Shown: positions 877 to 55,910, numbered from the stretch's first letter. The stretch: 64,000 nt of DNA from an uncultured Rikenella sp. (GCA_964627825.1 CAZVLJ010000005.1:2289-66288), one strand, 5' to 3'. A program made the numbers and translations. The notes: generated by a model not told the origin, from the sequence alone.

Positions 877-943
877 TTTAATTGATACCGTAGGTGAACT
901 CTTCAGGGTCCCGCTTGTTAACGTTATACAATTCACAAGTAAG

Positions 944-4771: not shown

Positions 4772-5296
4772 TCAGGCAGGAAAGCAGATACTGCCAATGG
4801 CTATTTCCTCAGTCTCGCGCAGTGAACGTTCCAGGGAGGCATACTGGCTTCTGTCACCTGTCAGCTCCAGAATGATCAGTCCGGCCGGCTCACCGAAATA
4901 TATCTCATTGACGCCCAGCCTGGTGCGGATAACACACCCGTAAGTGGTCAGCAACGCCTGTACTGCCAGCCCCAGTTCATCACGTTTCGGCACCATGATA
5001 CCCAGTATTGTGATGCCTTCACACTCCACGGGAGCATCGGAGAAGCCGTGGGAGAATACCATTTCCTTAATGAACAGCCCCTCAATACTCTTCAGCTTTG
5101 CAACCAGATCCTCACAGTCGTCAGCCTGACCTGCAAGGTGGATAACCATGAAACCCTCACGGCTGCACAGTTCATCGTTCAGCTCGTGAAATCCAAGTCT
5201 TGTGCTGACCACGGCAGCATGTTCCGAGAGTGCTTTCTGGACCAGTCCTGCCTCCTTGATCCTGTCAGTGATCTTAATGCCTAATACTCTGACCAT
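4772..5296 (-). CDS. Tandem-duplicated TM1266-like putative iron-only hydrogenase system regulator (two ACT/NikR-C-like repeats)
   Basis: 174 aa. The two halves follow the same pattern: VLGIKITDR..AGLVQKALSEHAAVVSTRLGFHE...GFMVIHLAG..EDLVAKLKSIEGLFIKEMVF versus ITILGIMVPKR..LAVQALLTTYGCVIRTRLGVNE...GLIILELTG..ASLERSLRETEEIAIGSICF. It lies 11 nt downstream of hydG. Confidence 0.6.
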   Translation of the reverse strand: MVRVLGIKITDRIKEAGLVQKALSEHAAVVSTRLGFHELNDELCSREGFMVIHLAGQADDCEDLVAKLKSIEGLFIKEMVFSHGFSDAPVECEGITILGIMVPKRDELGLAVQALLTTYGCVIRTRLGVNEIYFGEPAGLIILELTGDRSQYASLERSLRETEEIAIGSICFPA

Positions 5297-5307
5297 GATA
5301 GTATGTT

Positions 5308-6729
5308 TTAATAGTAAAGGTCCCTCTCACCGTTCCTGATACGCTCAATCTTCTTCCTGATACTCTGCTTCATCCCCTCATCGAGGTCGACCATGTTCTT
5401 TTCAATAGCCTTCCATCCCTTCTCAGCAAGTTCAGGTGAGGCGTAATCAACGATATATTCCGAGAGCGTCAGTATGGCGTTGGGGGTACAGTATCTCTTG
5501 ATAAAGCCAGGCACAGAGAACTCCATGAAATGTTCGCCTGTGCGGCCGAGGCGGTAGCATGCAGTGCAGAATGACGGAATATAGTCGTTGTCTATCAGTT
5601 CATTGATGACATCGGCAAGTGACCTTTCATCATTGATCTTGAACTGCTCGCGGTTGAGGTTCTGCTCGGCATTCTTCGATGCGGAGTAACCGCCAAGTTC
5701 CAGTTTTGTTCCGCCGTCTATCTGTGAGACACCAAAGGCCATTGCTTCGGAGCGTACTGCCGGAGCCTCTCTGGCCGTCAGGATGAGTCCGGTATATGGC
5801 ACCGCAAGGCGAAGGATGGCAATCAGCTTCTTGAAATCGTCATCATTCACATAGTACTTCGGGTTCAGGTTCAGCGCCAGGGCGTCCTTAATCCTTGGGA
5901 AGGAAATTGTGTGCGGGCCAACATTATAGCAGGCCTCCAGGTGGTTGGTGTGCCTTACCAGACCCATCACCTCGAACCTCCAGTCATACAGACCGAAGAG
6001 AGCACCAATGCCTACATCATCAATACCTGCCTCCTGGGCCCTGTCGAGAGCTGTCAGCCTCCAGTTGTAGTCTTTCTTTTTACCTCCCAGGTGATACCAT
6101 GTGTAAGCTTCCGGGTCATAGGTCTCCTGGAAGATCTGGTAGGTGCCTATGCCGGCTCTGCCAACCGTGCGGAAACCGTCTATATCCAGCGGAGCAGCAT
6201 TGATGTTCACCCTGCGAATCTCACCACGGTCTTTCTTGATACCGTAGACGAGCTTCACCGTATGAGCTATGTATTCAGGACCATACTCGGGATGTTCACC
6301 ATAAACAAGTATCAGTCTCTTCTGCCCGTTGTCCTCCAGTGCCTCAACCTCTGCTGTTATGTCGGCATCGGAGAGGGTTTTGCGCCTGGCATCCTTATTC
6401 GTAACCCTGAAGCCGCAATACTGGCAGTTATTGACGCATTTGTTCCCTATGTAAAGAGGGGCAAAAAGCACTATCCTGTTGCCATAAACCTTCTTCTTCA
6501 GTTCGCGTGCTCCGGCTTTGATCTCCTCACCCAGGTCTCCTTCGGCATTGATCAGGGCTGCTGTCTCCGCAAGTGTAAGGCGCTCCTTTGAGAGCGATTT
6601 TGCTATCAGCTCCCTTACTCTCACCCTGTCAGCCCTGTTGTTATTGATAAATGACCACAGCTCGGCAGGATCAATGAACGGCTCCATCCGGCGGTCGGGA
6701 ATACTGCATTTTTCTGGATTGAATTTCAT
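5308..6729 (-). CDS. hydG: [FeFe]-hydrogenase H-cluster maturase HydG (radical SAM tyrosine lyase)
   Basis: 473 aa. Radical-SAM motif CVNNCQYCGF and the C-terminal auxiliary-cluster motif CTAC-X22-C (CTACYRLGRTGEHFMEFSVPGFIKRYC), which is characteristic of HydG. Confidence 0.9.
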   Translation of the reverse strand: MKFNPEKCSIPDRRMEPFIDPAELWSFINNNRADRVRVRELIAKSLSKERLTLAETAALINAEGDLGEEIKAGARELKKKVYGNRIVLFAPLYIGNKCVNNCQYCGFRVTNKDARRKTLSDADITAEVEALEDNGQKRLILVYGEHPEYGPEYIAHTVKLVYGIKKDRGEIRRVNINAAPLDIDGFRTVGRAGIGTYQIFQETYDPEAYTWYHLGGKKKDYNWRLTALDRAQEAGIDDVGIGALFGLYDWRFEVMGLVRHTNHLEACYNVGPHTISFPRIKDALALNLNPKYYVNDDDFKKLIAILRLAVPYTGLILTAREAPAVRSEAMAFGVSQIDGGTKLELGGYSASKNAEQNLNREQFKINDERSLADVINELIDNDYIPSFCTACYRLGRTGEHFMEFSVPGFIKRYCTPNAILTLSEYIVDYASPELAEKGWKAIEKNMVDLDEGMKQSIRKKIERIRNGERDLYY

Positions 6730-6806
6730 CTCGTTATTTTTTTCCCTCCTCCACTAAGAAATTAACACTCAATATACGGAAAATAGCCACCTGTGGTTCA
6801 GACATA

Positions 6807-7718
6807 TCAGAAGATAAGCTCCTCCATCTCCCCTGCCCCGGCAATAAGGGCTTTAGCCGGCTCAGCAAACATTCGGCTCGCATCCAGACGTTTATGAAAA
6901 AAGAGAGTCATTCTCTTGCCCGGGATATCACTCTCATAGTTCTCCAGGTGAAGGAAGAGGTCAGGCAACGGTGCCCCGTTGTCAGGGATAAACACCATAC
7001 CCCTTGAGTAGAATGTCTCTGCGGCGCATGATACAGCATACAGGCCTGGTGCAGGCAGGAGCTTGGTGACGTCAGTTACGGGAATGCGTATCATCGGCAC
7101 CTGCGGACTTATGGCCGGATCCTCCTTTACTGCTGTGCCGATGACAAGATAGAAATGGTCAAGATAGGCATTAGCGCGCTGGATGTATCCCTCTGTCAGC
7201 GCCTGCCTTATACGTGTAGAGCTGACGGTCTCATTCTGCACCTCCTGCATGGGTATCTCTTCGGCCTCAAAGCCGTATTTCTCCCTCCAGGCCCACAACG
7301 TACGATAGTCGCCCTGCTGGTTAAACCCGAAGTGATGATTATGACCCACAACTATCACCTTTGCCCCAAGGGTACCGCAGAGAATATCTCTCACGAACTC
7401 CTCGCTGGTGATCCGTGCAAAATGGCGTGTGAACTCAATAATGATGATATTGTCAAGCCCCGCCTTGCGCAGCAGTTCTATCTTCTCCTCCTGTGAACAG
7501 ATGAGCTTAAGTCCCTTGCCGGCCGTCTCGGGATAGAGGACCACCCTGGGATGAGGATGAAACGTTATTAGTACGCTCTCGCCGTTATGCTCGGAGGCAA
7601 GCTTTTTCAGCCTTTTAATGATTGTCCTGTGGCCAATGTGAACGCCGTCAAAAGTACCCGTGGTCACCACGGGAGCCTGTATTACTGATGCCTCCTGAAA
7701 GCTCCTGAAGATTCTCAT
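6807..7718 (-). CDS. ribF: RibF-like FAD synthetase with a divergent riboflavin-kinase domain
   Basis: N-terminal FMN adenylyltransferase motifs are intact: GTFDGVHIGH, ITFHPHPR, VVGHNHHFGF, VSSTRIRQAL. The C-terminal domain keeps the length and GLYAV but lacks the GFPTAN and NIGxRPT motifs. The start codon overlaps the rex stop (TAATG). Confidence 0.75.
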   Translation of the reverse strand: MRIFRSFQEASVIQAPVVTTGTFDGVHIGHRTIIKRLKKLASEHNGESVLITFHPHPRVVLYPETAGKGLKLICSQEEKIELLRKAGLDNIIIIEFTRHFARITSEEFVRDILCGTLGAKVIVVGHNHHFGFNQQGDYRTLWAWREKYGFEAEEIPMQEVQNETVSSTRIRQALTEGYIQRANAYLDHFYLVIGTAVKEDPAISPQVPMIRIPVTDVTKLLPAPGLYAVSCAAETFYSRGMVFIPDNGAPLPDLFLHLENYESDIPGKRMTLFFHKRLDASRMFAEPAKALIAGAGEMEELIF

Positions 7719-8353
7719 TACCCTGCAGGCTGCTGGTTTTCCTTAACGAAGTAGGCTACTTTCTCTATTGAGGTTATCATATCAAACTCCTCAAGGTATA
7801 CGGTATCAGGGACATTCAGCGGAACGGTTGTGAAGTTCATTATACCCCGTATTCCGTTACTTACCAGCAGTGATGCCACAGATACCGCCTGATCAGCGGG
7901 CACGGCCAGAACGGCAACAGAGATGTCAAGCTCCTCCCGCAGGCTCTTCAACTGGTTAATGTTATGGCATCGAACCCCGGCTACAACCTTATCAACTTTC
8001 TGGGGATCAATATCAAAGGCAGCCACCACATTCATGTTGGTACGTTTGCCCTTAAAGTAACCCGTGATAGCCCGTCCCAGGTTACCCATACCCATGATTG
8101 CCACATTCAGTCCGCTGGGTGCATCAATAATAGTTCCGATTGTTTTTATCAGTTCCCTTACGTCATACCCTTTACGCATCACGCTGCCGTAACCTATGAG
8201 CATAAGATCGCGTCTCACCTGTACGGCAGTGATATGCAGCATTGCTGCAAGCTCATGTGAGAACACATAGTTGCGATTGGCAGCCAGGGTAGCGGCAAGG
8301 GCTCTTCTGTACTGGCTTAGCCGTTCAACGGTCTTTCCTGGGAGTGTTTTCAT
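7718..8353 (-). CDS. rex: Redox-sensing transcriptional repressor Rex
   Basis: 211 aa. N-terminal winged-helix region (TVERLSQYRRAL...FSHELAAML..TAVQVRRDLMLIGY), Rossmann motif IMGMGNLGRAITGY, and AAFDIDPQKV, which is typical of Rex. Confidence 0.85.
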   Translation of the reverse strand: MKTLPGKTVERLSQYRRALAATLAANRNYVFSHELAAMLHITAVQVRRDLMLIGYGSVMRKGYDVRELIKTIGTIIDAPSGLNVAIMGMGNLGRAITGYFKGKRTNMNVVAAFDIDPQKVDKVVAGVRCHNINQLKSLREELDISVAVLAVPADQAVSVASLLVSNGIRGIMNFTTVPLNVPDTVYLEEFDMITSIEKVAYFVKENQQPAG

Positions 8354-9498
8354 ATTCCGGTCTTTAAATTGGAAACCTGTGATCTGGGTATTATCACTGT
8401 GAAGACTGATCCTTTGTCAGGGGCACTCTCCACATTAATCACACCATGATATAGATCGACAACCTTTTTGACTATTGAGAGACCCAGACCGCTGCCGCTG
8501 ATGTTACGTGTCTTGTCATTGCGTATCCGTGAGAACTCTTCAAAAAGCATTTCGCGCTCTTCACTGTTCATCCCTATACCTGTGTCAGCCACCGAAAGGG
8601 AGAACTCATCCTCATTGCAGTTGAGGGTTATCATTACCGTACCTCCGGGATTATTGTACTTGACGGCATTGGAAACGAGGTTATTCATGATTATCTCGAA
8701 ATCATTGGGATCTGCCCAGATGGTCTCACATCCATTGATCTCTGTAACAAACCGTATGTCCTTATGTATGGCATAGGGACTGACTGTCACCACAGCCATG
8801 GAGGCCAGCTCCCTGAGGTTAACGTTCTGCATCTTTTCCATCTGCCTCTCAAAACTCACCTTGGTGAAGTCGAGCAGGTCCATGATCAGGTGCCTCATGC
8901 TGTCAATGCGCTGAAGTGATCTCTCAATGGCAGAGGCATACTCGTCAAGTGAATCACCCATCTGTCTCTCCTGCATCATCTTGAGATATCCTTCCACTGC
9001 ATTCAGCGGGGCCTTCAGCTCGTGTGAGAGCACGGAGAGGAACTGGAACCGGACCTTCCTGCCCTCGACCTTTAGTTTGTGGGTTATCCTGCGCAGGTAT
9101 TGCTGCTTGGTGATCTGTTCTATGGAAGATTTCAGCTCCTGCGGCGTGAAGGGTTTGGGAATAAAGTCAATGGCCCCGTCACTGTGCGCTTTTACAGCGA
9201 CATCGATTGAAGCATATGATGTTATCATGGCCACCACAATGTCATAGTTCTTTTTCCTGACATATTCCAGTACCTCAACCCCCTGTATCCCGGGTAGCTT
9301 ATTGTCAAGAAGCAGGATATCAGGCATCTCCCGGTCAATTATCTCTATTCCCTCCTCGCCGGTCGCTGCCTCCAGTATCTGAAACGTATAATCCTCATCC
9401 ATAAAAGGATAGGTGACATGAAAATTGCCCAGTATCCTGGTTACGCCTGACCTGATACCGGGTTCATCATCTACAACCAGTATTTTCAGCTGTGCCAT
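8350..9498 (-). CDS. Hybrid response-regulator receiver / histidine kinase (REC-HisKA-HATPase)
   Basis: REC domain (LVVDDEPGIR...LLLDNKLPG...IPKPF), then H-box LSHELKAPLNAV and the ATPase boxes NAVKYN, DTGIGM, GSGLGLS. A 4-nt ATGA overlap with the rex start. Confidence 0.85.
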   Translation of the reverse strand: MAQLKILVVDDEPGIRSGVTRILGNFHVTYPFMDEDYTFQILEAATGEEGIEIIDREMPDILLLDNKLPGIQGVEVLEYVRKKNYDIVVAMITSYASIDVAVKAHSDGAIDFIPKPFTPQELKSSIEQITKQQYLRRITHKLKVEGRKVRFQFLSVLSHELKAPLNAVEGYLKMMQERQMGDSLDEYASAIERSLQRIDSMRHLIMDLLDFTKVSFERQMEKMQNVNLRELASMAVVTVSPYAIHKDIRFVTEINGCETIWADPNDFEIIMNNLVSNAVKYNNPGGTVMITLNCNEDEFSLSVADTGIGMNSEEREMLFEEFSRIRNDKTRNISGSGLGLSIVKKVVDLYHGVINVESAPDKGSVFTVIIPRSQVSNLKTGI

Positions 9499-9500
9499 TG

Positions 9501-9893
9501 TCAGATTTTTAAGAGTTTTCTTACTTCCTGTTCAAGCTGCTCGGGCCTCACCCCTTTCTCAAGGTAGAGATCAGCCCTGATCCAGTCGCGATCCTGCTCT
9601 CCGCTGAGCCCGAAAGTGATGCCAGTCTCGCGTGAGACTGCCGTAGCTAGTATCACCGGCACGTCGGGATACCTCCTTTTAAGCTTGTAACAGAGGATAA
9701 AGCCGCTGTCATCACTCTCCATCATCAGGTCAAAGACGGCTATGTCAGGCTTCATTTTGGCAATTACCTGTTCTGCTTCAGTCTGGCTCTCCACGGCTAT
9801 CACCTCGAAGCCGGCCTTACGCAGGTAAAAGGCTGTCTGGAAGAGATAATCGGGATCATCATCAACCAGCAGTACGGTATATACTTTGTTCAT
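9501..9893 (-). CDS. Single-domain response regulator (REC only)
   Basis: 130 aa. LLVDDDPD, phospho-acceptor context AVFDLMME, conserved T/K positions (LATAV, YLEKG). No output domain. Confidence 0.85.
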   Translation of the reverse strand: MNKVYTVLLVDDDPDYLFQTAFYLRKAGFEVIAVESQTEAEQVIAKMKPDIAVFDLMMESDDSGFILCYKLKRRYPDVPVILATAVSRETGITFGLSGEQDRDWIRADLYLEKGVRPEQLEQEVRKLLKI

Positions 9894-9940
9894 TGTAATT
9901 ATTTGTTTTTAAACTTGTTATAATGCATTCACAATCATGC

Positions 9941-11905: not shown

Positions 11906-11917
11906 ACTCTTATTCTG

Positions 11918-13633: not shown

Positions 13634-13636
13634 GGC

Positions 13637-15586
13637 TTATTTAACTGTAACAGCACTGAACTTGCATACATCATAACAAATACCGCATCCGATGCACTTG
13701 TCCTCAACAATGAAGAAAGGCTGGAGCCTGGTGCCGTAGATGGCATTTACCGGGCATTTAGCAGCACAGACGGTACACCCGGTACACTTCTCCACGTCAA
13801 TGCTGAATGTTCTCAGTCCCCTACACACATTTGCACGGCATCTTCTGTCAAAGATATGCTCCTCAAATTCCTCCCGGTAGTTAGCCAGGGCGCTGATGAA
13901 AGGGTTTGGTGCCGTCTGCCCCAGTCCGCATAGCGAAGTGTCCTTCATCACCGCAGCGATTGTCTCAAGCTGCATCACCCCCTTGAACCTCTCGAGAGTG
14001 GCGTTGGAGTCCTCACTCAGGGGCTTCCTGACTATGTTTTCAAGTATCTCCAGCATTCGTCCCGTTCCTTCGCGGCAGGGGATGCATTTGCCACAGCTCT
14101 CCCTGTGAATGAACGCCATGTAATACCTCACAAAATCAACCAGGCAGGTGGTCTCGTCAATAATGATGAGCCCTCCTGATCCCATGGCTATGCCGTTTTC
14201 GCGCAACACGTCGAAATCGACCGGCAGATCAAGGTTCTTCTCCGTTATGAAGGTGCCCGAGGGACCTCCTATCTGCAGTGTTTTAAATGCTTTCCCATCC
14301 TTTATGCCATCGGTGATGCCTTCGGCGATTGTTCTGAAGGTGGTGCCCATCTCAACCTCAATGAGGCCCGTGAGCCGTCCCCTGCCGCCCAGGGAAAAGA
14401 GCTTGGTGCCCTTGCTTCCTTCGGTGCCCATTCCACGGAACCACTCCGGACCGTGAGACATGATGAGAGGCACATTCATCAGGGTCTCCACGTTGTTGAT
14501 GACAGTGGGTTTGCCAAAGAGGCCGCTGCTGGTGGGGTATGGGGGTTTGAGCTCGGGCATGCCCCGTTTGCCTTCCAGGCTGGCTATCAGCGCTGTCTCC
14601 TCGCCACACACGAATGCTCCTGCTTCCTCACGGATGACTATCTCCAGATTAAAGCCGCTGGAGAGGATATTGTGGCCCGTGATACCATACTCCGCGGCGG
14701 CGGCAAGAGCCTTGCGCAGGCGGGCAAGCGGGTGAGGCGATCCCGCCTTGAGATAGATGATGGCACTTGATGCCCCGATAGCATACGCAGCAATGCATAT
14801 TCCTTCAATAAGCCTGTGCGGGTCGCCTTCAAGGACAGACCTGTCAGCATATGATCCGGGGTCACTCTCCTTTGCGTTGCAGATCAGGTAGCGGTTATCA
14901 GATGCCGAGTTGAGGGCATACTTCCATTTAAGTCCGGTGTTGAAGCCTCCGCCGCTGCGCCCGCGCAGGCCGCTGCGCTCAACAATATCACAGACCTCCT
15001 CATGCGTGTAATTGCGGATCGTCTTGAGAAAGGCCCTGTAACCTCCCCTGGCAATGTACTCTTCAATGCTCTCCGGATCATAGCATCCGCAGTTGCCCAG
15101 CACAACCCTCTTCTGCAGCCTGAAGAAGGGGATCTCATCAATGAAGGGTATATCATGCCAGGCCTCGAAGCCGTAATTGCCTGATTGTCCGACGAGATCC
15201 TCCTCAGGCATGTCATTGTGGAAGACCCCGTTGAGAAGAGGTTCTACCTTGTCCTCAGTTATATTCCTGAAGACAAGCTTGTTCTTGCCCGGCAGGTGAA
15301 CACACATCACCGGCTCGAATGCGGCAGGACCATGACAGCCGGTGAGCACCACCTCACCCCTGATTTCCATTTCTTCAAGGTACTGCGATGTTGCCGCTGC
15401 CGCGGCTGTACTGCCTGCAATTATTGCAGCCGATCCCGTAGCCACATAGATGACAGGTGCGGAAGGTTTGTCACGACGTATCTCCGAGAGCCGCTTCTCC
15501 GTATCAGCCGGCAGAGTGTCAGAAGCATGGAGCAGTACCTCCCTGATAAGGAATTTCTTCAAATCGGTTTCTGTTTTCTGTTTCAT
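13637..15586 (-). CDS. hydB: NuoF-like flavoprotein subunit HydB of a trimeric (bifurcating-type) hydrogenase
   Basis: 649 aa. FMN/NADH motif GRSGGGFNTGLKWKY, 4Fe-4S motif ESCGKCIPCREGT, C-terminal 2x[4Fe-4S] (CTGCTVCAAKCP, CIGCGICYDVC). Confidence 0.85.
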   Translation of the reverse strand: MKQKTETDLKKFLIREVLLHASDTLPADTEKRLSEIRRDKPSAPVIYVATGSAAIIAGSTAAAAATSQYLEEMEIRGEVVLTGCHGPAAFEPVMCVHLPGKNKLVFRNITEDKVEPLLNGVFHNDMPEEDLVGQSGNYGFEAWHDIPFIDEIPFFRLQKRVVLGNCGCYDPESIEEYIARGGYRAFLKTIRNYTHEEVCDIVERSGLRGRSGGGFNTGLKWKYALNSASDNRYLICNAKESDPGSYADRSVLEGDPHRLIEGICIAAYAIGASSAIIYLKAGSPHPLARLRKALAAAAEYGITGHNILSSGFNLEIVIREEAGAFVCGEETALIASLEGKRGMPELKPPYPTSSGLFGKPTVINNVETLMNVPLIMSHGPEWFRGMGTEGSKGTKLFSLGGRGRLTGLIEVEMGTTFRTIAEGITDGIKDGKAFKTLQIGGPSGTFITEKNLDLPVDFDVLRENGIAMGSGGLIIIDETTCLVDFVRYYMAFIHRESCGKCIPCREGTGRMLEILENIVRKPLSEDSNATLERFKGVMQLETIAAVMKDTSLCGLGQTAPNPFISALANYREEFEEHIFDRRCRANVCRGLRTFSIDVEKCTGCTVCAAKCPVNAIYGTRLQPFFIVEDKCIGCGICYDVCKFSAVTVK

Positions 15587-16050
15587 TTCAGATCAGCCAG
15601 GGCTTTGAGTTTTGCAATCATCGCCGGAATATCCTCCGGCCGGATATGAGTAAAGTACTTTTCATTCACATAGATGACAGGTCCTTCATTACACCCTCCC
15701 TGACACGCCGTCAGTTCATAACTGAACCTGCCATCACGGGTAGTCTGCCCCGGCTCAATGCCCAACGCCTCCTTCACGGCAGTAACCACACCCCCGGAAC
15801 CATTTATGAAACAAGTCGTTCCATTACATATACGCAGATGGATCCTGCCTTCAGGAATGAACCTGAAACGGTCATAAAAGGTAGCCAGCCCATAAATCTT
15901 GGTGGTTGACATATGAAGGAACCTGCCAATGCTAACTATAGCATTCTCAGAGAGATATCCCTCTGCCTCCTGTACGTCCTGAAGGATCGGGATAAGGTTT
16001 TCATGACTCCCCTCCCTGTAGCGGGTCAGTATTTCCTCTATCTTGCTCAT
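15583..16050 (-). CDS. hydC: NuoE-like thioredoxin-fold [2Fe-2S] subunit HydC
   Basis: 155 aa. Cys pattern ICNGTTCFINGSGG...CQGGCNEGPV typical of NuoE/HydC. A 4-nt overlap with the hydB start. Confidence 0.85.
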   Translation of the reverse strand: MSKIEEILTRYREGSHENLIPILQDVQEAEGYLSENAIVSIGRFLHMSTTKIYGLATFYDRFRFIPEGRIHLRICNGTTCFINGSGGVVTAVKEALGIEPGQTTRDGRFSYELTACQGGCNEGPVIYVNEKYFTHIRPEDIPAMIAKLKALADLK

Positions 16051-16081
16051 CTTTAGTTTGATCTGATTATCCGGGCAAATG

Positions 16082-16112
16082 CAAAGCTACTTCTTTTTGT
16101 TGTTATTTCAAA
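16082..16112 (-). promoter_or_regulatory. Candidate Bacteroidota-type promoter for the hydCBA operon (-33 TTTG / -7 TAgcTTTG)
   Basis: Read on the minus strand: TTTG (16112..16109), a 19-nt spacer, then TAGCTTTG (16089..16082). This lies about 32 nt upstream of the hydC ATG at 16050. Pattern match only. Confidence 0.4.
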
Positions 16113-16134
16113 AACAATGTTATTTTATTAACAA
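16100..16134. promoter_or_regulatory. Two adjacent Rex-operator-like inverted repeats
   Basis: TTGTTATTTCAAAAACAA (16100..16117) and ATGTTATTTTATTAACAA (16117..16134), compared with the published Rex consensus TTGTTAA-N4-TTAACAA. Box 1 overlaps the predicted -33 element of hydCBA. rex is encoded in the same operon. Confidence 0.45.
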
Positions 16135-16219
16135 TTAACGACTGAAATTCTCAGTTCCCTGATGTAAGCGATTAAATTTATTGTACTTTTGAGATAGCAT
16201 GTAATAAAATATCAGATTC

Positions 16220-16465
16220 TTGGGACAATCGCACAGCATAGAGATCTGCCTTGGAAGTTCCTGTTTTTCCAGAGGTAACAGGGAGGCGGTTCAGATAATA
16301 AAGGAGTACCTCAGGAAGAATCACCTGGATGACAAGGTGGTGCTCCGGGGAGCCCGCTGCATGAATCATTGCAGTGAAGGTCCGGTCATCATTATTAACG
16401 GAAATACTTTCTTCAGTACAGGCATTCAGGATATTGAAAAGATACTGGAGAGAGAGCTGGTATGA
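16220..16465 (+). CDS. Small thioredoxin-like [2Fe-2S] ferredoxin (NuoE-fold, HfsA-like)
   Basis: 81 aa. Cys pattern ICLGSSCFSRGN...CMNHCSEGPV. Apparent TTG start at 16220 (no in-frame ATG). Immediately upstream of the H-domain-PAS gene. A TActTTTG -7-like box lies at 16184..16191. Confidence 0.65.
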   Translation: MGQSHSIEICLGSSCFSRGNREAVQIIKEYLRKNHLDDKVVLRGARCMNHCSEGPVIIINGNTFFSTGIQDIEKILERELV

Positions 16466-16488
16466 CATGATACACCAACGCATTGATT

Positions 16489-18366
16489 ATGAAGATCCCC
16501 GATCAGGTAATATACATTAATGAGGATAAGTGTCGCAACTCTTATTCATGTGTCAGGGCGTGCCCTGTAAATGCAATCGAGGTCAAGCCCGAGAGGGCGC
16601 ACCCGGTAATCATTGCCGACAGGTGCATAGGGTGCGGGCTCTGTTTTCTTGCCTGTTCACCAGGGGCCATTGAGTTTATGGATTCGAAGGGCCGTGCAAA
16701 GGAGATACTGCAATCGGGCCGTCCTGCTGCTGCCCTCATTGCCCCCAGCATAGCATCTGAGTTTGATGATATCACTGACTATCGCAAGTTCGTGGCCATG
16801 ATACGCAAGTTGGGATTCACCTATGTGCATGAGGTCTCATTCGGAGTTGACCTGGTAGCCTATGCCTACAAAAAGCTCTTCGAGGAGTCGAGCGGCAAAT
16901 ACTACATCACGGCCAACTGTCCATCCATTGTTGAGATGATAGAGAAGTATCATCCTCACCTGGTGCCTAACATGGCCCCGCTGGTTTCGCCGCTTATAGC
17001 CACGGCCATGGTCACGCGCGATCTTTATGGAGAGGAGGTGGCCAATGTGTTTATCGGGCCATGTATTGATATCAAAGCTGAAGCTGACCTGTACAGTGAC
17101 AGGAACCTGGTTGAAGGGGTTCTGACCTTCATTGAGATTCGCCAGCTCTTTGAAGAAAACAACATCCAGGAAAAGACTGTCAAGATGTCTGAGTTTGATC
17201 CTCCCTTTGGCAATTGGGGAGCACTCTACCCCTACCCTGCAGGCATACTGCAGGCAGCGGGCATCAAGCGTGACCTGGTCTCAAGCCAGGTGATCACCGC
17301 CTCCGGGGCTGAGGATGTGAAGGAGGCAATCAATGATTTTGACCATCACATTGATACAATCAGGCATCACTTTAACCTCTTCTTCTGTCCGGGGTGTATG
17401 CTGGGGCCGGGTATGATCAGGCACGATGAGCGCTACCGGCGCCGGTCACTGGTCAAGCAATACGCTGAGAAACGTGTGGAGGTGCTTGACAAGAAACAGT
17501 GGCAGAAGGATATGGACCGTTGGTCAAAGCTTGATCTCACCCGCACCTTCAGGGCCAATGACCAGCGTATTCCCGAACCAACGCCTGAAGCGATAGGCGA
17601 GGTGCTCAAGATAATTGGCAAGGATAACCGGTCAGAGGAGCTTAACTGCAATGCCTGTGGTTACGGCTCGTGCCGCGAGTTCGCATCAACGGTGGCCAAG
17701 GGGCTTGCGGTGCCGGAGATGTGCCACACCTATAACCTGCGAAACAAGCAGGAGTACATTGAAACACTTCGTCAGACCAACAGGAAGCTTTCAGAGACCA
17801 AGAAAGCCCTGAAGGACTCGGAGGAGCAGGCCATGCGTGAAAAGGATGCGGCACAGGATGCCTCTGACACCATGAACAGCATGCTCAACAAACTGCCCAA
17901 CGGGGTGGTCATCGTTGACAATGAGCTGAAGATCCTTCACTCCAATGAACGTTTTCTGGAGATCATAGGTGAGGATGCCAAGGCCATAGCCGAGATCATT
18001 CCCGGGCTCAGGGGGGCTGACCTGAAGACTCTGATGCCGTTCAACGTTTACAATATATTCTCTTTCGTGCTGCGCGAAAATGAATCAGTCATCAGCAGGG
18101 ATGTGCAGCTTGAGGATCATATGTTCAATGTCTCAATCTTCCCCATACGTCAGAACAGGATTGCCGGGGCAGTGATACGTGACCTGTTCTCACCCGAGGT
18201 GCAGCGTGAGGAGGTGATCACCAGGGTTTCAGACGTGATAGACAAGAACCTTGATATGGTGCAGAAGATAGGATTCCTACTCGGTGAGGGTGCCTCCGAG
18301 ACGGAGAAGATGCTCAACTCTATTGTTGAATCATTCCGGCAGAAGAAAAATGAACCGGGAAAATAA
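16489..18366 (+). CDS. [FeFe]-hydrogenase-like putative sensor with C-terminal PAS domain (HydS/HfsB-like)
   Basis: 2x[4Fe-4S] motifs (CRNSYSCVRACP, CIGCGLCFLAC). H-domain variants TANCPSI, GPCIDIKAE and NLFFCPGCMLGPG. Four-Cys motif LNCNACGYGSCREF...MCHTY. A coiled segment, then a PAS-like region (LPNGVVIVDNELKILHSNERFLEIIG). ATG 16489 preferred over the TTG at 16483. Confidence 0.8.
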   Translation: MKIPDQVIYINEDKCRNSYSCVRACPVNAIEVKPERAHPVIIADRCIGCGLCFLACSPGAIEFMDSKGRAKEILQSGRPAAALIAPSIASEFDDITDYRKFVAMIRKLGFTYVHEVSFGVDLVAYAYKKLFEESSGKYYITANCPSIVEMIEKYHPHLVPNMAPLVSPLIATAMVTRDLYGEEVANVFIGPCIDIKAEADLYSDRNLVEGVLTFIEIRQLFEENNIQEKTVKMSEFDPPFGNWGALYPYPAGILQAAGIKRDLVSSQVITASGAEDVKEAINDFDHHIDTIRHHFNLFFCPGCMLGPGMIRHDERYRRRSLVKQYAEKRVEVLDKKQWQKDMDRWSKLDLTRTFRANDQRIPEPTPEAIGEVLKIIGKDNRSEELNCNACGYGSCREFASTVAKGLAVPEMCHTYNLRNKQEYIETLRQTNRKLSETKKALKDSEEQAMREKDAAQDASDTMNSMLNKLPNGVVIVDNELKILHSNERFLEIIGEDAKAIAEIIPGLRGADLKTLMPFNVYNIFSFVLRENESVISRDVQLEDHMFNVSIFPIRQNRIAGAVIRDLFSPEVQREEVITRVSDVIDKNLDMVQKIGFLLGEGASETEKMLNSIVESFRQKKNEPGK

Positions 18367-19564
18367 TCCTTCGGCAGCATTGGAGAAGCAGTTCTTCATA
18401 GAGGTGAACAGCCAGCAGCGCAACCACCATGGTGAGCGTATCTGCGGCGATGTCTTCCTGTCAGAGAACGTGCGGGAAGAAAACCGAATCATCACCGTGC
18501 TCTCTGACGGCATGGGACACGGAGTAAAAGCCAATATTCTGGCAACGCTCACATCCACCATGGCCCTCAATTTCACGAAGGAACACAAGGAGCCTGACCG
18601 CATTGCCGAGATTATCATGAATACCCTCCCGGTCTGTTCGGAGAGGAAGATCAGCTATGCCACCTTCTCCATTGTTGATATTGAGAGCGACGGCCGTGTC
18701 AATATACTGGAGTATGACAACCCGCGCTGCATTATCCTCAAGGGCAGCCAGCCCTTTGAGCCGGGATGGAAGGATGTGGTGCTTGACACAGGCAGAAATG
18801 CAGGCAAACGTCTTCACAAGTGCACTTTCTACCCCGCCAAGGAGGACCGCATTATCCTTCTTTCCGACGGTGTTGCACAGAGTGGCATGGGATCAGCAGC
18901 ATGGCCCCTGGGATGGGAACGTGACAATGTACTGCAGTACGCCATGTCACTTGTCGCAGGAGAGTCATCCATCTCTGCCGGATCACTTGCAGCGAAGATT
19001 GTCAACATGGCCTATAAATATGACAATTACGAGGCCAAGGATGATATCTCGTGCGCCATTCTTTACTTCCGCGAGCCACGCAAGCTGCTCCTCTGCTCAG
19101 GTCCGCCCTATGATGAGGAAAAGGATAAGGAGCTTGCCTCCATGGTTACGGACTACAACGGCAAGGTAATTCTCTGCGGCGGAACCACCGCTGATATTGT
19201 GGCACGAGAGCTGAACCGCAAAATAGTTGATGAGCTTATATTTGAGGATAACGACCTGCCCCCTGAAAGCTTCATGGAGGGAATAGACCTGGTCACCGAA
19301 GGTATACTTACACTGCAGAAGGTAAGTGAGCTGCTGAAGAGCTACAAAAGCAGCGTCAAGCTCGGTAAGGGTCCGGCTGACAAGATTGTCAGGATGATCA
19401 TGGAGAGTGACGAAATCAACTTTGTGGTGGGCACACGGATCAATGTGGCACACCAGGACCCCAGCCTGCCGGTTGATCTTGAGATACGACGGACAGTGGT
19501 GAAGCGCATAGCGCGCCTGCTGGAGGATAAGTGGCTTAAACAGGTAAGTATTGATTATATTTGA
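18350..19564 (+). CDS. PP2C/SpoIIE-family serine phosphatase with an extra C-terminal domain
   Basis: ICGDVF, VLSDGMGHGVKA and LLSDGVAQSG motifs. ATG 18350 (MNRENN...) overlaps the upstream stop by 17 nt; the track ORF starts at GTG 18284. Confidence 0.8.
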   Translation: MNRENNPSAALEKQFFIEVNSQQRNHHGERICGDVFLSENVREENRIITVLSDGMGHGVKANILATLTSTMALNFTKEHKEPDRIAEIIMNTLPVCSERKISYATFSIVDIESDGRVNILEYDNPRCIILKGSQPFEPGWKDVVLDTGRNAGKRLHKCTFYPAKEDRIILLSDGVAQSGMGSAAWPLGWERDNVLQYAMSLVAGESSISAGSLAAKIVNMAYKYDNYEAKDDISCAILYFREPRKLLLCSGPPYDEEKDKELASMVTDYNGKVILCGGTTADIVARELNRKIVDELIFEDNDLPPESFMEGIDLVTEGILTLQKVSELLKSYKSSVKLGKGPADKIVRMIMESDEINFVVGTRINVAHQDPSLPVDLEIRRTVVKRIARLLEDKWLKQVSIDYI

Positions 19565-47177: not shown

Positions 47178-47208
47178 ATAACTGTCTCCTTCTTCTTTGC
47201 TTTTTTTG

Positions 47209-48009
47209 TCATCCGCCCTTCTTTACATGTATTCCAAGCGGTTTGAAAATATCAATGTATTCGTCGAGATGACCATTTGACACCTGACTGACAGAAGTCA
47301 TCCTGTCATCGATCCCGAAGCGACGATACTTCGAACTGCCGGTCTTGTGATAAGGCAGCAGGTTTATCTCTTTGATATGGCCATTATTACGATTGCCGAT
47401 GAAATCCCTCAGACTCTCCATGTATATGGTATCGGCTGTCACCCCGGGAATGACCGGAACACGTATCATCACATCCTTCTTTTCTGTCAGAAGCATGTCA
47501 AGGTTTGATATGATCAGTTCATTGCTTACTCCGGTATACTTCCTGTGCAGCTCCGGATCAGTATGTTTGATATCATAAAGAAACAGGTCTGTGACAGGTA
47601 TGACAGACTGCAATACCTCCCTCCTGGCATAGCCTGAAGTATCAATTGTAGTATGGAAACCTGACTTTTTGAGAAGAGACAGTGCTTCACGGAGAAATAC
47701 CGGTTGCATCAGTGGTTCACCTCCGGAAAATGAAACACCTCCTCCCGAATGTTCCATGAAGACCCTGTCAGCCTCCGCCCTGGCAACAATCTCCTCCGGT
47801 GTATACTCTCGTCCTACCTGCTCCTCTGATCTGAATTCTCTCTTACCAATCCTGTCAATCTTTTCCACCATTCTTATGCCCGGTGCCTTACCTTCCGGGT
47901 TATGACACCACCAGCAGTCGAGCGGACAACCCTTCATGAAGAATGTGATCCTGATACCGGGACCGTCATGAATTGCATATCTTTTTATACTGAATATCAA
48001 GCCTTTCAT
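47209..48009 (-). CDS. Glycyl-radical enzyme activating protein (radical SAM), minimal form
   Basis: MKGLIFSIKRYAIHDGPGIRITFFMKGCPLDCWWCHNPE (CX3CX2C), and GGGVSFSGGEPL. Only three Cys in the whole protein. ATG 48009 preferred over the track start at 48087. Confidence 0.85.
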   Translation of the reverse strand: MKGLIFSIKRYAIHDGPGIRITFFMKGCPLDCWWCHNPEGKAPGIRMVEKIDRIGKREFRSEEQVGREYTPEEIVARAEADRVFMEHSGGGVSFSGGEPLMQPVFLREALSLLKKSGFHTTIDTSGYARREVLQSVIPVTDLFLYDIKHTDPELHRKYTGVSNELIISNLDMLLTEKKDVMIRVPVIPGVTADTIYMESLRDFIGNRNNGHIKEINLLPYHKTGSSKYRRFGIDDRMTSVSQVSNGHLDEYIDIFKPLGIHVKKGG

Positions 48010-55877: not shown

Positions 55878-55910
55878 AGTTTTTTCTTTAAAAATAGAAA
55901 ATATTGTAAA

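What the first reader, a model, noticed from the sequence alone, without database searches (positions are those of the whole stretch)
4772..19564. Hydrogenase island combining a HydABC complex, two different H-domain sensors, Rex, a phosphorelay without output and the maturases
Seen directly: on the minus strand hydC, hydB, hydA, an H-domain histidine kinase, REC, a REC-HK hybrid, rex and ribF are chained. The junctions are ATGA overlaps (hydC/hydB, hybrid HK/rex), a TAATG overlap (rex/ribF) and gaps of 2-47 nt. After 77 nt come hydG and a tandem TM1266-like gene. A 169-bp region separates this chain from a divergent plus-strand trio: a small 2Fe-2S protein, an H-domain-PAS protein and a PP2C phosphatase whose start overlaps the preceding stop by 17 nt. 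One locus therefore holds three paralogous H-cluster domains and two mechanistically different signalling branches (His-Asp phosphorelay and Ser/Thr phosphatase). Established knowledge: putative sensory [FeFe]-hydrogenases (HydS, 'group C') occur next to hydrogenase genes in Firmicutes and Thermotogae, with kinase or PP2C partners, and Rex regulates hydrogenase genes in several anaerobes. Inference: I do not know of a characterised example with both sensor types, Rex and output-less REC proteins wired around a single HydABC in a Bacteroidota-like genome. The signal flow (H2 and NADH to what target?) is undefined.
Basis: partly seen in the sequence, partly recalled or inferred. Interest (0 to 1): 0.8.

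Follow-up and report, generated by a model that had tools for sequence, protein, structure and literature searches.

The report
Rex-controlled hydrogenase operon with two sensors
An uncultured Bacteroidales bacterium from biogas reactors carries a widely conserved gene cluster in which a three-subunit iron hydrogenase-type complex is flanked by two hydrogenase-like sensor proteins and an NADH-sensing repressor; this layout has been noted in genome surveys but never tested, and the supposedly catalytic subunit has an unusual active-site pocket.

Summary
In detail: all 13 genes, strands and junctions are as described. Corrections are small. The PAS domain is just below Pfam thresholds. The 'ribF' is a FAD-synthetase domain plus a degenerate kinase domain. 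Only hydG lies inside the stated coordinates; hydE is at 944-2032 and hydF is absent from the 64 kb.

The cluster is not a one-off. At least 36 species-level Bacteroidales genomes have the same 13 genes in the same order. The core hydCBA / H-domain kinase / REC / REC-kinase, with rex, also occurs in other phyla.

Two abutting Rex operators (16100-16134) are the only such sites in the window. They are conserved across these loci, immediately upstream of a Bacteroidetes-type promoter element for hydC.

The two sensors are 38% identical paralogues of the group C sensory [FeFe]-hydrogenase type and differ only in their output module.

Published surveys already report two sensors around one HydABC in Bacteroidota, and a rex-hydCBA-kinase sensor operon in Caldithrix. 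No functional study was found.

Verdict: new variant of a known kind; moderate interest.

The parts
   Evidence: NCBIfam TIGR03956 scores 321.8 bits against a cutoff of 254.6. It is syntenic in relatives.
4772..5296 (-). Tandem TM1266-like protein (two ACT-like repeats)
   Evidence: NCBIfam NF052672 (CPF_0552 family) scores 131.3 against a cutoff of 85, with two matched stretches. Pfam TM1266-like scores 31.6 against 27.
5308..6729 (-). hydG maturase, probably with its own promoter
   Evidence: TIGR03955 scores 477.4 against a cutoff of 312. A -7 element TATCTTTG is conserved about 50 nt upstream in relatives; in the window it is degenerate (TATATTGA).
6807..7718 (-). ribF-like gene: FMN adenylyltransferase (FAD synthetase) domain plus a degenerate riboflavin-kinase domain
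   Evidence: Pfam FAD_syn E = 2.6e-45. Flavokinase scores only 16.1 bits against a cutoff of 19.6. The motifs GTFDGVHIGH, ITFHPHP and SSTRIR are conserved, but the PTAN motif is lost. The gene follows rex in 64 loci.
7718..8353 (-). rex, NADH/NAD+-sensing repressor
   Evidence: NF003995 scores 191.5 against a cutoff of 126. Pfam Put_DNA-bind_N and CoA_binding both hit. The GxGNLG motif is conserved.
8350..9498 (-). REC-HisKA-HATPase protein: a receiver-gated histidine kinase with no sensor or output domain
   Evidence: Pfam Response_reg 82.1, HisKA 50.1 and HATPase_c 101.6 bits. The DD, D, T/S and K receiver residues and the H, G1 and G2 boxes are conserved in about 67 orthologues.
9501..9893 (-). 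Stand-alone receiver protein (130 aa)
   Evidence: Pfam Response_reg scores 58.6. The acidic pocket, phospho-acceptor Asp, Thr and Lys are conserved in 72 orthologues.
9941..11905 (-). Sensory-type [FeFe]-hydrogenase domain fused to a histidine kinase. Domain order: two 4Fe-4S sites, H domain, Cx2Cx4Cx16C site, coiled coil, HisKA, HATPase.
   Evidence: Pfam Fe_hyd_lg_C 156.4, FeS (PF04060) 36.3, HisKA 50 and HATPase_c 90.4 bits. P1 is ISSDCP (C299 to Asp), P2 is GPCVAKK and P3 is ELLCCEGC, all conserved. Its kinase core is closest to ZraS/AtoS types.
11918..13633 (-). hydA: M3-type [FeFe]-hydrogenase large subunit with a non-canonical H-cluster pocket
   Evidence: Full-length match to T. kivui HydA1 (8a6t), 405 bits. 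NCBIfam A6 scores 545.7, below its cutoff of 765, and TIGR02512 scores 337, below 406. The four Cys ligands are kept, but E279L, E282A, R286A, C299A, M353T and K358M are substituted.
13637..15586 (-). hydB: NuoF-like flavoprotein subunit with a C-terminal 2x[4Fe-4S] domain; the N-terminal [2Fe-2S] cysteines are lost
   Evidence: Pfam Complex1_51K, NADH_4Fe-4S and two Fer4 hits. Best PDB match is 7t2r_B at 594 bits, where VCRGTGC aligns with VATGSAA in the window. The loss is conserved in the clade.
15583..16050 (-). hydC: NuoE-like [2Fe-2S] subunit
   Evidence: Pfam 2Fe-2S_thioredx scores 150 bits. NF005722 scores 142.9 against a cutoff of 141.
16082..16089 (-). Bacteroidetes-type -7 promoter element TAGCTTTG for the hydC operon
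   Evidence: A TAnnTTTG element sits at -39 from the hydC start and is conserved in nearly all Bacteroidales loci.
16100..16134 (.). Two abutting 18-bp Rex operators (16100-16117 and 16117-16134)
   Evidence: They are the only two matches in 64 kb to TTGTTAWNNNNWTAACAA at up to 2 mismatches; 0.41 are expected by chance. They are conserved at -84 and -67 from hydC in about 50 loci, down to 37% HydC identity, and in L084 and L086.
16184..16191 (+). -7 promoter element TACTTTTG for the plus-strand operon
   Evidence: It is conserved about 35 nt upstream of the 2Fe-2S gene start in about 45 loci.
16220..16465 (+). Small thioredoxin-like [2Fe-2S] protein (HfsA-like by domain content); TTG start
   Evidence: Pfam 2Fe-2S_thioredx scores 39.1 against a cutoff of 24.8. 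The TTG start is conserved in 40 loci, with in-frame stops upstream.
16489..18366 (+). Sensory-type [FeFe]-hydrogenase with a C-terminal coiled coil and a PAS-like domain
   Evidence: Fe_hyd_lg_C scores 131 and FeS (PF04060) 32.5. P1 is IT[AS]NCP (C299 to Asn), P2 is GPCIDIK and P3 is NLFFCPGC. Six PAS models score just below threshold. It is 38% identical to the kinase-fused sensor.
18350..19564 (+). PP2C (SpoIIE/RsbU-type) Ser/Thr phosphatase with an unassigned C-terminal domain of about 150 aa; an alternative start is TTG 18380
   Evidence: Pfam SpoIIE scores 47.7 against a cutoff of 25. The predicted N-terminal fold matches SpoIIE, the Rv1364c RsbU domain and RsbX, with Foldseek E values from 3e-11. 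The catalytic motifs GD, DGMGHG, DG and DD are conserved.

Best explanation
This is a conserved chromosomal regulon of fermentative Bacteroidales, built around an NADH- and ferredoxin-linked HydABC-type [FeFe]-hydrogenase complex. Three inputs converge on it.

1. Rex (well supported). Rex binds two abutting operators that overlap the -33 region of a Bacteroidetes-type promoter. When NADH/NAD+ is low, it shuts off the operon hydC-hydB-hydA-sensor kinase-REC-REC kinase-rex-ribF-like. Because rex is in that operon, it autoregulates. Rising NADH releases Rex.

2. The kinase-fused sensor (inferred). This group-C-type H domain reports H2, or the redox state set by H2, through its C-terminal FeS site and coiled coil to its kinase core. 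The kinase phosphorylates the stand-alone receiver and the receiver of the REC-kinase. The REC-kinase then acts on a response regulator encoded elsewhere. The stand-alone receiver acts as a sink or as an allosteric partner.

3. The divergent operon (inferred). It has its own promoter and makes a second, paralogous sensor with a small 2Fe-2S partner and a PAS-like domain. This sensor controls a partner-switching-type PP2C phosphatase. The phosphoprotein target is also outside the locus.

hydG with the TM1266-like gene, and hydE, supply the H-cluster.
For: - Gene content and junctions are confirmed.
- The 13-gene layout is conserved in at least 36 species-level genomes. The 8-gene hydC-to-ribF unit recurs in deeply diverged loci with 38-46% HydA identity.
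- The regulators are as conserved as the enzyme genes (82-94% identity, against 50-82% for flanking genes), which indicates purifying selection.
- The Rex protein passes its NCBIfam cutoff.
- The only two Rex-box matches in the window are adjacent, in the hydC upstream region. They are conserved in about 50 loci, immediately upstream of a conserved TAnnTTTG element.
- Both sensors have the hallmarks published for sensory [FeFe]-hydrogenases. These are no C299, M353 replaced by Gly, an N-terminal 2x[4Fe-4S] domain and a C-terminal Cx2Cx4Cx16C site (literature).
- The kinase and receiver catalytic residues and the PP2C metal-binding motifs are conserved in all orthologues. The PP2C fold is confirmed.
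- Genetics in Thermoanaerobacterium show that the homologous hfsAB and hfsCD genes act in a regulatory pathway (PMC5707799).
- A Rex site upstream of rex-hydCBA-sensor was proposed for Caldithrix.
- The Verrucomicrobiota relative L072 extends the same chain with REC and a REC-Ser/Thr kinase, which gives one example of an output.
Against: - There are no experimental data for any member of this operon type.
- No output domain, Hpt, STAS or RsbW-type partner occurs in the 64 kb, so the end of both branches is unknown.
- H2 as the sensed signal is assumed by analogy with TmHydS and TamHydS. Those proteins bind an H-cluster, but their signalling has never been shown.
- The PAS domain is sub-threshold, and the structure model of that region was of low confidence.
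- HydA lacks the proton pathway, K358 and M353, and HydB lacks one cluster site. The complex being regulated may therefore not be an efficient hydrogenase.
- Co-transcription is inferred only from short gaps and overlaps. Some relatives carry a promoter-like TAnnTTTG before REC, or pst genes between hydA and the kinase.
Confidence: 0.6

Rival explanations
1. The HydABC-type complex in this operon family is not a proficient hydrogenase. Its HydA retains only the [4Fe-4S] part of the site, or holds a poorly tuned H-cluster. Under this view the complex is the NADH/ferredoxin redox-input module of a larger sensing machine, together with the adjacent H-domain kinase. Alternatively, it is a slow, strongly biased enzyme that uses a different proton route.
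For: - HydA has L279, A282, A286, A299, T353 and M358 in place of E279, E282, R286, C299, M353 and K358, while the four Cys ligands are kept.
- Across the nearest 50%-identity cluster representatives, the second-sphere positions 230, 232, 279, 282, 286, 299, 325, 353, 358, 417 and 497 are hypervariable. In canonical group A sequences they are invariant.
- Four of those non-canonical representatives sit in the same hydCBA-kinase-REC-REC kinase-rex-ribF operon.
- Loss of the HydB N-terminal [2Fe-2S] cysteines co-occurs with the non-canonical HydA.
- HydA and HydB fall below the NCBIfam cutoffs.
- There is a precedent: in NiFe-HydABCSL the H-cluster position of HydA holds a plain [4Fe-4S] cluster (PMC9304861).
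- The kinase-fused sensor keeps K358 and has Asp at position 299. Asp is the only substitution reported to keep activity in prototypical enzymes.
Against: - TmHydS also has Ala at position 299 yet turns over H2, so an alternative proton route is possible.
- hydG and hydE are adjacent.
- The whole 571-aa M3 architecture, including the small-subunit-like tail, is retained under strong purifying selection. The SACPAW and PCTAMKFEA motifs are invariant in about 50 species.
- A flavin- and FeS-rich three-subunit complex is a costly device for a sensor alone.
- It is unknown whether another hydrogenase exists elsewhere in the genome.
Confidence: 0.2
2. The modules are functionally independent neighbours. 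hydCBA with rex is a metabolic operon. The kinase, REC and REC-kinase genes control something unrelated. The divergent trio is a separate HydS-PP2C unit. Under this view they cluster only because all three H-domain proteins need the same maturases.
For: - No output regulator ties the signalling genes to hydCBA.
- In L055 and L062, pst-type transporter genes separate hydA from the kinase genes.
- In other phyla rex lies upstream and the PAS/PP2C trio is absent, so the modules can be gained and lost separately.
Against: - The order and orientation of all 13 genes are kept in at least 36 species. The 8-gene unit is kept at 38-46% HydA identity, with 2-12-nt gaps and 4-nt overlaps.
- hydF is not clustered, and hydE sits behind an unrelated gene. 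Maturase sharing is therefore a weak force for clustering.
Confidence: 0.1
3. The H-domain proteins do not sense H2. They sense the ferredoxin or NADH redox poise through their accessory FeS clusters, or they sense O2 or CO.
For: - Each sensor carries two N-terminal [4Fe-4S] sites and a C-terminal four-Cys site.
- The PAS-type sensor has Ile, not Lys, at the K358 position.
- Published sensory enzymes show altered CO and O2 reactivity.
Against: - The four H-cluster cysteines are invariant, and maturase genes are adjacent.
- TmHydS and TamHydS bind an H-cluster and react with H2.
Confidence: 0.1

Closest known systems
Two-sensor BfuABC/HydABC clusters of cultured Bacteroidota (Perlabentimonas gracilis, Tenuifilum thalassicum, Williamwhitmania taraxaci), noted in PMC11406978
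   Same: One group-C sensor gene lies upstream of hydC/bfuC and another lies downstream of hydA/bfuA, in the same phylum.
   Different: These clusters are known only as a one-sentence genomic remark ('implications unclear'). That paper does not mention Rex, and the passages read do not describe receivers, ribF-like or PP2C partners. I could not fetch those genomes, so I do not know whether their HydA has the non-canonical pocket seen here.
Caldithrix abyssi Cabys_3675-3679 (rex-hydCBA-kinase-fused sensor) and similar Elusimicrobia and Hydrogenedentota 'sub-type V' clusters
   Same: A trimeric HydABC is followed directly by an H domain fused to a histidine kinase. Rex is in the same cluster, with a predicted Rex box. 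The relatives L072, L074 and L076 found here have this layout, plus REC and a REC-kinase.
   Different: In those clusters rex is upstream rather than downstream. There is a single Rex box, no PAS/PP2C trio and no ribF-like gene. Their HydA is canonical (TSCSP, MPCTAKK).
HydS / HfsABCD systems of Thermotoga maritima, Ruminococcus albus and Thermoanaerobacterium saccharolyticum
   Same: A small 2Fe-2S protein, an H-domain-PAS protein lacking C299 and carrying a C-terminal four-Cys site, and a Ser/Thr phosphatase sit next to a bifurcating hydrogenase, often with Rex nearby. Regulatory function is supported genetically for the hfs genes.
   Different: The Firmicutes systems include a Ser/Thr kinase or an anti-sigma-type kinase (hfsD), which is absent here. 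They have no kinase-fused paralogue and no receivers.
Regulatory [NiFe]-hydrogenase HoxBC-HoxJ-HoxA of Cupriavidus necator (Ralstonia eutropha)
   Same: A low-activity hydrogenase serves as an H2 sensor that controls a histidine kinase, and thereby hydrogenase expression. It works in a similar way (described).
   Different: The metal site and protein family are unrelated. That system has a defined DNA-binding response regulator (HoxA), which is missing here.
Rex regulons of Clostridia and Thermotogales
   Same: The Rex family protein is the same, and the operator is of the TTGTTAAnnnnTTAACAA type, in front of hydrogenase genes and sometimes hydG.
   Different: Here two operators abut each other, upstream of a Bacteroidetes -33/-7 type promoter. 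I did not find Rex operators described for Bacteroidota in the papers read.

Membership tests
Electron-bifurcating HydABC ([FeFe] group A3) | HydA with M3 domain order (2Fe-2S, His-ligated 4Fe-4S, 2x4Fe-4S, H domain, small-subunit-like tail) and the four H-cluster cysteines | tested here: met
   The Pfam domains occur in the expected order. There is a full-length alignment to 8a6t_A, 7q4v_A and 7p5h_A. C300, C355, C499 and C503 are conserved.
Electron-bifurcating HydABC ([FeFe] group A3) | Canonical H-cluster motifs P1 TSC[CS]P, P2 MPCxxKK and P3 ExMxCxxGC, together with the proton pathway residues E279, E282, R286, C299 and S319 | tested here: not met
   P1 is VSACP and P2 is TPCTAMK. E279, E282 and R286 are replaced by L, A and A; only S319 and P3 are kept. 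NCBIfam A6 scores 545.7, below its cutoff of 765, and TIGR02512 scores 337, below 406. The CpI residue numbers were checked against a CpI sequence recalled from memory and against the literature.
Electron-bifurcating HydABC ([FeFe] group A3) | HydB with an FMN/NADH site, a NuoF-type 4Fe-4S site and a C-terminal 2x[4Fe-4S] domain | tested here: met
   Pfam Complex1_51K, NADH_4Fe-4S and two Fer4 hits. The alignment to 7t2r_B extends through the C-terminal ferredoxin domain.
Electron-bifurcating HydABC ([FeFe] group A3) | HydB N-terminal [2Fe-2S] cluster ligands | tested here: not met
   VATGSAA and GCHGPAAFEP in the window align with VCRGTGC and GCHGMCEMGP in 7t2r_B. The loss is conserved in the window clade.
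Electron-bifurcating HydABC ([FeFe] group A3) | NADH- plus ferredoxin-coupled H2 turnover | not testable with these tools
   This needs biochemistry.
Sensory [FeFe]-hydrogenase (group C, HydS / M2f type) | An N-terminal 2x[4Fe-4S] domain, an H domain with the Cys ligands but without C299 or the canonical proton path, M353 replaced, and a C-terminal Cx2Cx4Cx16C site | tested here: met
   Both sensors meet this. They have Fer4 pairs, Fe_hyd_lg_C and PF04060. Position 299 is Asp or Asn, and position 353 is Gly. The four-Cys motif is conserved. The criteria are taken from PMC8163306 and PMC10055695.
Sensory [FeFe]-hydrogenase (group C, HydS / M2f type) | C-terminal PAS domain | tested here: inconclusive
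   For the plus-strand protein, six PAS Pfam models hit one region, all just under their cutoffs. The PDB sequence search and the AlphaFold model were uninformative. The minus-strand protein has HisKA-HATPase in place of a PAS domain.
Sensory [FeFe]-hydrogenase (group C, HydS / M2f type) | HydDB subgroup assignment (C1 kinase-linked or C3 phosphatase-linked) | not testable with these tools
   HydDB is not available here, and the published assignments of kinase-fused forms disagree: C1 for Petrimonas and C3 for Caldithrix-type forms.
Rex redox repressor and its regulon | Rex family protein with a winged-helix domain and a Rossmann NADH domain | tested here: met
   NF003995 scores 191.5 against a cutoff of 126. 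Pfam Put_DNA-bind_N and CoA_binding hit, and the GxGNLG motif is conserved.
Rex redox repressor and its regulon | Palindromic 18-bp operator in the promoter of the target operon | tested here: met
   There are two sites at 16100-16134, each with 1 mismatch to TTGTTAWNNNNWTAACAA. They are unique in the window and conserved in about 50 loci next to the -7 element. Binding itself was not tested.
Two-component system / phosphorelay | Histidine kinase with H, N, G1 and G2 boxes, and receivers with the acidic pocket, Asp, Thr/Ser and Lys | tested here: met
Two-component system / phosphorelay | An output (effector) domain or an Hpt protein | tested here: not met
   None is found in the locus or elsewhere in the 64 kb. 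A relative, L072, has a REC-Ser/Thr kinase downstream.
PP2C partner-switching module (RsbU/SpoIIE type) | PP2C fold with the metal-binding Asp motifs | tested here: met
   Pfam SpoIIE scores 47.7. Foldseek matches 5ucg, 3ke6 and 3w40. The motifs are conserved.
PP2C partner-switching module (RsbU/SpoIIE type) | A cognate STAS-domain substrate and an anti-sigma-type kinase | tested here: not met
   No such genes occur in the window.
H-cluster maturation set HydE/HydF/HydG | All three maturases present | tested here: inconclusive
   HydG and HydE pass their equivalog cutoffs. HydF is absent from the window but could be elsewhere in the genome.
Bifunctional RibF (riboflavin kinase / FAD synthetase) | Both an FMN adenylyltransferase domain and a riboflavin kinase domain with the PTAN motif | tested here: not met
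   All NCBIfam RibF models score below cutoff. Flavokinase scores 16.1 against a cutoff of 19.6. The PTAN motif is replaced in all orthologues.

The most novel reading that the evidence does not exclude
In this widespread eight-gene operon (hydC-hydB-hydA-sensor kinase-REC-REC kinase-rex-ribF-like), none of the H-domain proteins is a conventional hydrogenase. HydA belongs to an undescribed clade in which the whole second coordination sphere of the H-cluster is free to vary, and HydB has lost one cluster. Together with the kinase-fused H domain, the HydABC-like complex would then form an integrated device. That device would compare H2 with the NADH and ferredoxin pools and convert the result into phosphorylation. 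Alternatively, it is a new, mechanistically distinct subclass of bifurcating hydrogenase with its own proton route.
Probability: 0.2. Interest if true: 0.75.

Novelty: new variant of a known kind. Interest (0 to 1): 0.5.

Why it matters
What sensory [FeFe]-hydrogenases signal to has been an open question since they were proposed about a decade ago. How fermenters decide between making H2 and other reduced products matters for anaerobic digesters, the rumen and the gut.

This locus type is abundant in digester Bacteroidales. It is highly conserved and brings three inputs together in one place: NADH through Rex, and two H-domain sensors. It yields concrete, testable predictions:
- a tandem Rex operator on a defined promoter;
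- a kinase with two candidate receiver partners;
- a PP2C with a missing substrate.

Cultured relatives with similar clusters exist (Tenuifilum, Perlabentimonas, Williamwhitmania, Petrimonas).

The non-canonical HydA and HydB raise a further question: are many genes annotated as 'group A3 bifurcating hydrogenases' in Bacteroidota really efficient H2 producers? This would affect metagenome-based H2 budgets.

Tried and rejected
1. A third Rex-like site (TTGTTATAATGCATTCACAA) lies in the 47-nt kinase/REC gap. Its spacing differs and it is not conserved in any relative, so I rejected it as chance.

2. A Rex-like site at 921-938, in front of hydE, scores 12-13 of 14 only in the closest relatives. 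I left it as a weak lead.

3. The sigma-70 promoter and intrinsic terminator scans gave no more hits than shuffled sequence, and none in the gaps. They are uninformative for a Bacteroidetes genome.

4. The AlphaFold2 model of the PP2C protein has a C-terminal 150 aa with pLDDT below 50, so that domain could not be assigned a fold. No Pfam family hits it even at E = 10.

5. The AlphaFold2 model of the PAS region has a mean pLDDT of 51.6. The available homologues are more than 90% identical, so the alignment was too shallow. A PDB sequence search gave only E values around 0.8 to Aer2 PAS.

6. HydDB classification of the three H domains was not possible. NCBIfam has no group C model, and both sensors hit only the group B1 model, below cutoff.

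7. The search for an output regulator scanned all ORFs of 150 aa or more in the window. It found only an unrelated 7TMR-DISM kinase and a Crp/Fnr-type regulator next to a hybrid-cluster protein gene.

8. I considered that the locus is a mobile island. This was rejected for this lineage because GC content matches the flanks and the flanking genes are syntenic. The core module has clearly moved between phyla over longer timescales.

9. Literature searches found no functional study of a kinase-fused [FeFe] sensor and no description of HydABC with A299/M358. The library lacks most subscription-journal papers, including Zheng et al. 2014 and Chongdar et al. 2018.

Full report
OBSERVATION.

On the minus strand lie:
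- hydC (15583-16050)
- hydB (13637-15586)
- hydA (11918-13633)
- an H-domain histidine kinase (9941-11905)
- a 130-aa receiver (9501-9893)
- a REC-HisKA-HATPase protein (8350-9498)
- rex (7718-8353)
- a ribF-like gene (6807-7718)
- after 77 nt, hydG (5308-6729) and a tandem TM1266-like gene (4772-5296)

After a 169-bp divergent region, the plus strand carries:
- a small 2Fe-2S gene (TTG 16220-16465)
- an H-domain protein (16489-18366)
- a PP2C gene (18350-19564)

All overlaps and gaps are as stated. The corrections are these:
- The PAS domain is only sub-threshold.
- The PP2C start may be TTG 18380, as in most orthologues.
- The ribF-like protein has intact FMN-adenylyltransferase motifs but a degenerate riboflavin-kinase domain.
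- hydE lies outside the stated range, at 944-2032.
- hydF is not in the window.

CONSERVATION. The kinase-fused sensor has thousands of relatives, and the closest 120 are all from Bacteroidales metagenome bins. The identical protein occurs on biogas-fermenter contigs.

A scan of one genome per species returned 80 loci. tblastn mapping shows the full 13-gene layout, in the same order and orientation, in at least 36 of them. Most other loci are cut by contig ends.

The regulators are as conserved as the enzyme genes, at 82-94% identity. The flanking nudix and phosphoesterase genes are at 50-76% and the M14 peptidase gene at 60-82%.

The core hydCBA-kinase-REC-REC kinase also occurs in Verrucomicrobiota, Polyangia and unclassified bins, there with rex upstream of hydC.

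THE H DOMAINS. The two sensors are 38% identical over 506 residues. The shared region covers the two N-terminal 4Fe-4S sites, the H domain, the Cx2Cx4Cx16C site and the coiled coil. They diverge only afterwards, into HisKA-HATPase or a PAS-like domain.

Both lack C299 (Asp in one, Asn in the other) and have Gly at the M353 position. This matches the published signature of putative sensory [FeFe]-hydrogenases (PMC8163306, PMC10055695). They are therefore one sensor lineage with two outputs. They are also old paralogues: the kinase form is 50% identical to its orthologues in other phyla.

REX AND PROMOTERS. The pattern TTGTTAWNNNNWTAACAA, with up to 2 mismatches, matches only twice in 64 kb. The two matches, at 16100-16117 and 16117-16134, abut each other; 0.41 matches are expected by chance.

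The same pair lies at -84 and -67 from hydC in about 50 loci, including ones with only 37-45% HydC identity. It is followed, after about 10 nt, by a conserved Bacteroidetes -7 element TAnnTTTG at -39. It recurs in the deeply diverged loci L084 and L086.

The proximal box therefore covers the expected -33 region of the hydC promoter, which is the classic geometry for repression.

The plus-strand operon has its own conserved -7 element (TACTTTTG, 16184-16191). This lies about 35 nt before the conserved TTG start. hydG has its own conserved TATCTTTG element in relatives.

SIGNALLING PROTEINS. The kinase H, G1 and G2 boxes, the receiver acidic pocket, Asp, Thr and Lys, and the PP2C metal-binding motifs are conserved in all orthologues.

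The PP2C domain model is confident. It matches SpoIIE, the RsbU domain of Rv1364c and RsbX, which places it in the partner-switching subfamily. Its C-terminal 150 residues remain unassigned.

The REC-kinase has a full ATP-binding core and there is no Hpt protein. The arrangement is therefore a kinase cascade gated by a receiver, not a classical phosphorelay.

The H box of the REC-kinase is HELK[AS]P in all orthologues, and that of the sensor kinase is HExNNP. From my own knowledge of HisKA phosphatase motifs, this suggests that only the sensor kinase is bifunctional. This inference carries low weight.

No output domain, STAS or RsbW-type protein exists in the window. In the Verrucomicrobiota locus L072 the same chain continues with REC and a REC-Ser/Thr protein kinase. 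This hints that Ser/Thr phosphorylation could be the common currency of both branches.

LITERATURE.
- HydDB defines kinase-linked (C1) and phosphatase-linked (C3) putative sensory classes.
- A 2024 survey calls the sensor 'BfuT'. It describes PAS and His-kinase forms next to BfuABC. It also states that three cultured Bacteroidota carry one copy upstream of bfuC and one downstream of bfuA, with unclear implications.
- Caldithrix abyssi has rex-hydCBA plus the sensor, with a predicted Rex box.
- Elusimicrobia show a kinase-fused group C enzyme with Rex nearby.
- Petrimonas mucosa has a C1 enzyme near HndABCD.
- hfsAB and hfsCD deletions in Thermoanaerobacterium show a regulatory role for the PAS-type system.

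I found no functional work on the kinase-fused type. The library misses many subscription-journal papers.

AN UNNOTICED FEATURE. Alignment to structurally solved bifurcating HydA subunits shows several substitutions in the window HydA:
- P1 is VSACP instead of TSCCP.
- P2 is TPCTAMK instead of MPCxxKK.
- E279, E282 and R286 are replaced by L, A and A.
- The four Cys ligands are kept.

This variant is invariant in about 50 species.

A search of 1.8 billion cluster representatives shows that the nearest relatives, at 38-46% identity, are also non-canonical. They are hypervariable at positions 230, 232, 279, 282, 286, 299, 325, 353, 358, 417 and 497. More distant canonical sequences are invariant at those positions.

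Four such representatives lie in the same eight-gene operon.

In the same loci, HydB has lost the cysteines of its N-terminal [2Fe-2S] site. Loci with canonical HydA keep three of them.

The residue numbering rests on the literature and on a CpI sequence recalled from memory, whose motif positions agree with that literature. The role of K358 as the cyanide-binding lysine is my own knowledge.

MECHANISM.

Best supported:
- Rex represses the hydC operon through the tandem operators when NADH/NAD+ is low. That operon includes rex itself and the kinase cascade.

Inferred:
- The kinase-fused sensor converts H2 or redox state into phosphorylation of the two receivers.
- The REC-kinase passes the signal to a regulator elsewhere in the genome.
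- The PAS-type sensor, with its 2Fe-2S partner, controls the PP2C, whose substrate is also elsewhere.

In a syntrophic fermenter this would couple hydrogenase supply to NADH pressure. It would also adjust metabolism when H2 accumulates. Confidence in this overall picture is about 0.6. The Rex step is the most secure, and the two outputs are unknown.

RIVALS.
1. The HydABC-like complex is a redox-input module or a slow, atypical enzyme rather than an efficient hydrogenase (0.2). This is supported by the pocket and cluster losses. It is opposed by strong purifying selection, the adjacent maturases and the activity of TmHydS despite Ala at position 299.
2. The modules are independent neighbours (0.1). 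This is opposed by deep synteny.
3. The sensors read redox poise, O2 or CO rather than H2 (0.1).

VERDICT.

New here:
- the conserved tandem Rex operator on a Bacteroidetes-type promoter;
- the conserved receiver and REC-kinase pair without an output;
- the constant ribF-like partner of rex;
- the non-canonical HydA and HydB.

I rate it a new variant of a known kind, with interest 0.5.

Noticed in passing
window 11918-13633 (hydA) and 13637-15586 (hydB): HydA lacks the canonical proton pathway (E279L, E282A, R286A, C299A), as well as K358 (Met) and M353 (Thr), but keeps the four H-cluster cysteines. HydB has lost the cysteines of its N-terminal [2Fe-2S] site. The two changes co-occur across loci. 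The nearest HydA cluster representatives are hypervariable at all second-sphere positions.
   Followed up: partly
window 6807-7718: The ribF-like gene always follows rex (64 loci). It keeps the FMN-adenylyltransferase motifs but has lost the riboflavin-kinase PTAN motif. The reason for a FAD-synthetase-only protein in a Rex operon next to an FMN enzyme is unknown.
   Followed up: partly
L072:13503-15526 (Verrucomicrobiota MAG): Directly after the REC-kinase gene come a second stand-alone receiver and a REC-Ser/Thr protein kinase (Pkinase) fusion. This is a possible output for the same cascade in another phylum.
   Followed up: partly
L055:6131-9813 and L062:6454-9962: Four pstSCAB-like ABC transporter genes are inserted between hydA and the H-domain kinase in Bacteroidota loci that have a canonical HydA.
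   Followed up: no
L012, L013, L019, L039 and L077, upstream of hydC: Tandem repeats of about 49 bp (four copies in L019, each containing TAACTTTG) are inserted between the Rex boxes and hydC. They are absent from the window.
   Followed up: no
window 921-938: A Rex-like site, ACGTTATACAATTCACAA, lies 6 nt before the hydE start. It scores 12-13 of 14 only in the closest relatives, so it may be weak or may be chance.
   Followed up: partly
window 6730-6806: Relatives have a conserved TATCTTTG -7 element about 50 nt before hydG. The window reads TATATTGA at that position. hydG and the TM1266-like gene are therefore probably a separate transcription unit.
   Followed up: partly
window 55206-58582: A Crp/Fnr-type regulator (minus strand) lies divergent from a 4Fe-4S protein and a hybrid-cluster protein (Prismane family). 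This looks like an HcpR-Hcp type nitrosative-stress unit.
   Followed up: no
window 44808-48087: A pyruvate-formate-lyase-like glycyl-radical enzyme lies next to its radical-SAM activase.
   Followed up: no
window 58801-63048: A 1415-aa protein fuses two BcrAD/BadFG-type ATPase domains with DUF2229 and a weak 2-hydroxyglutaryl-CoA dehydratase D-component match. It resembles a dehydratase activator.
   Followed up: no
L086:17235-17710: In this relative the TM1266-like protein is encoded as two separate genes of about 85 aa, instead of the single tandem gene of the window.
   Followed up: no
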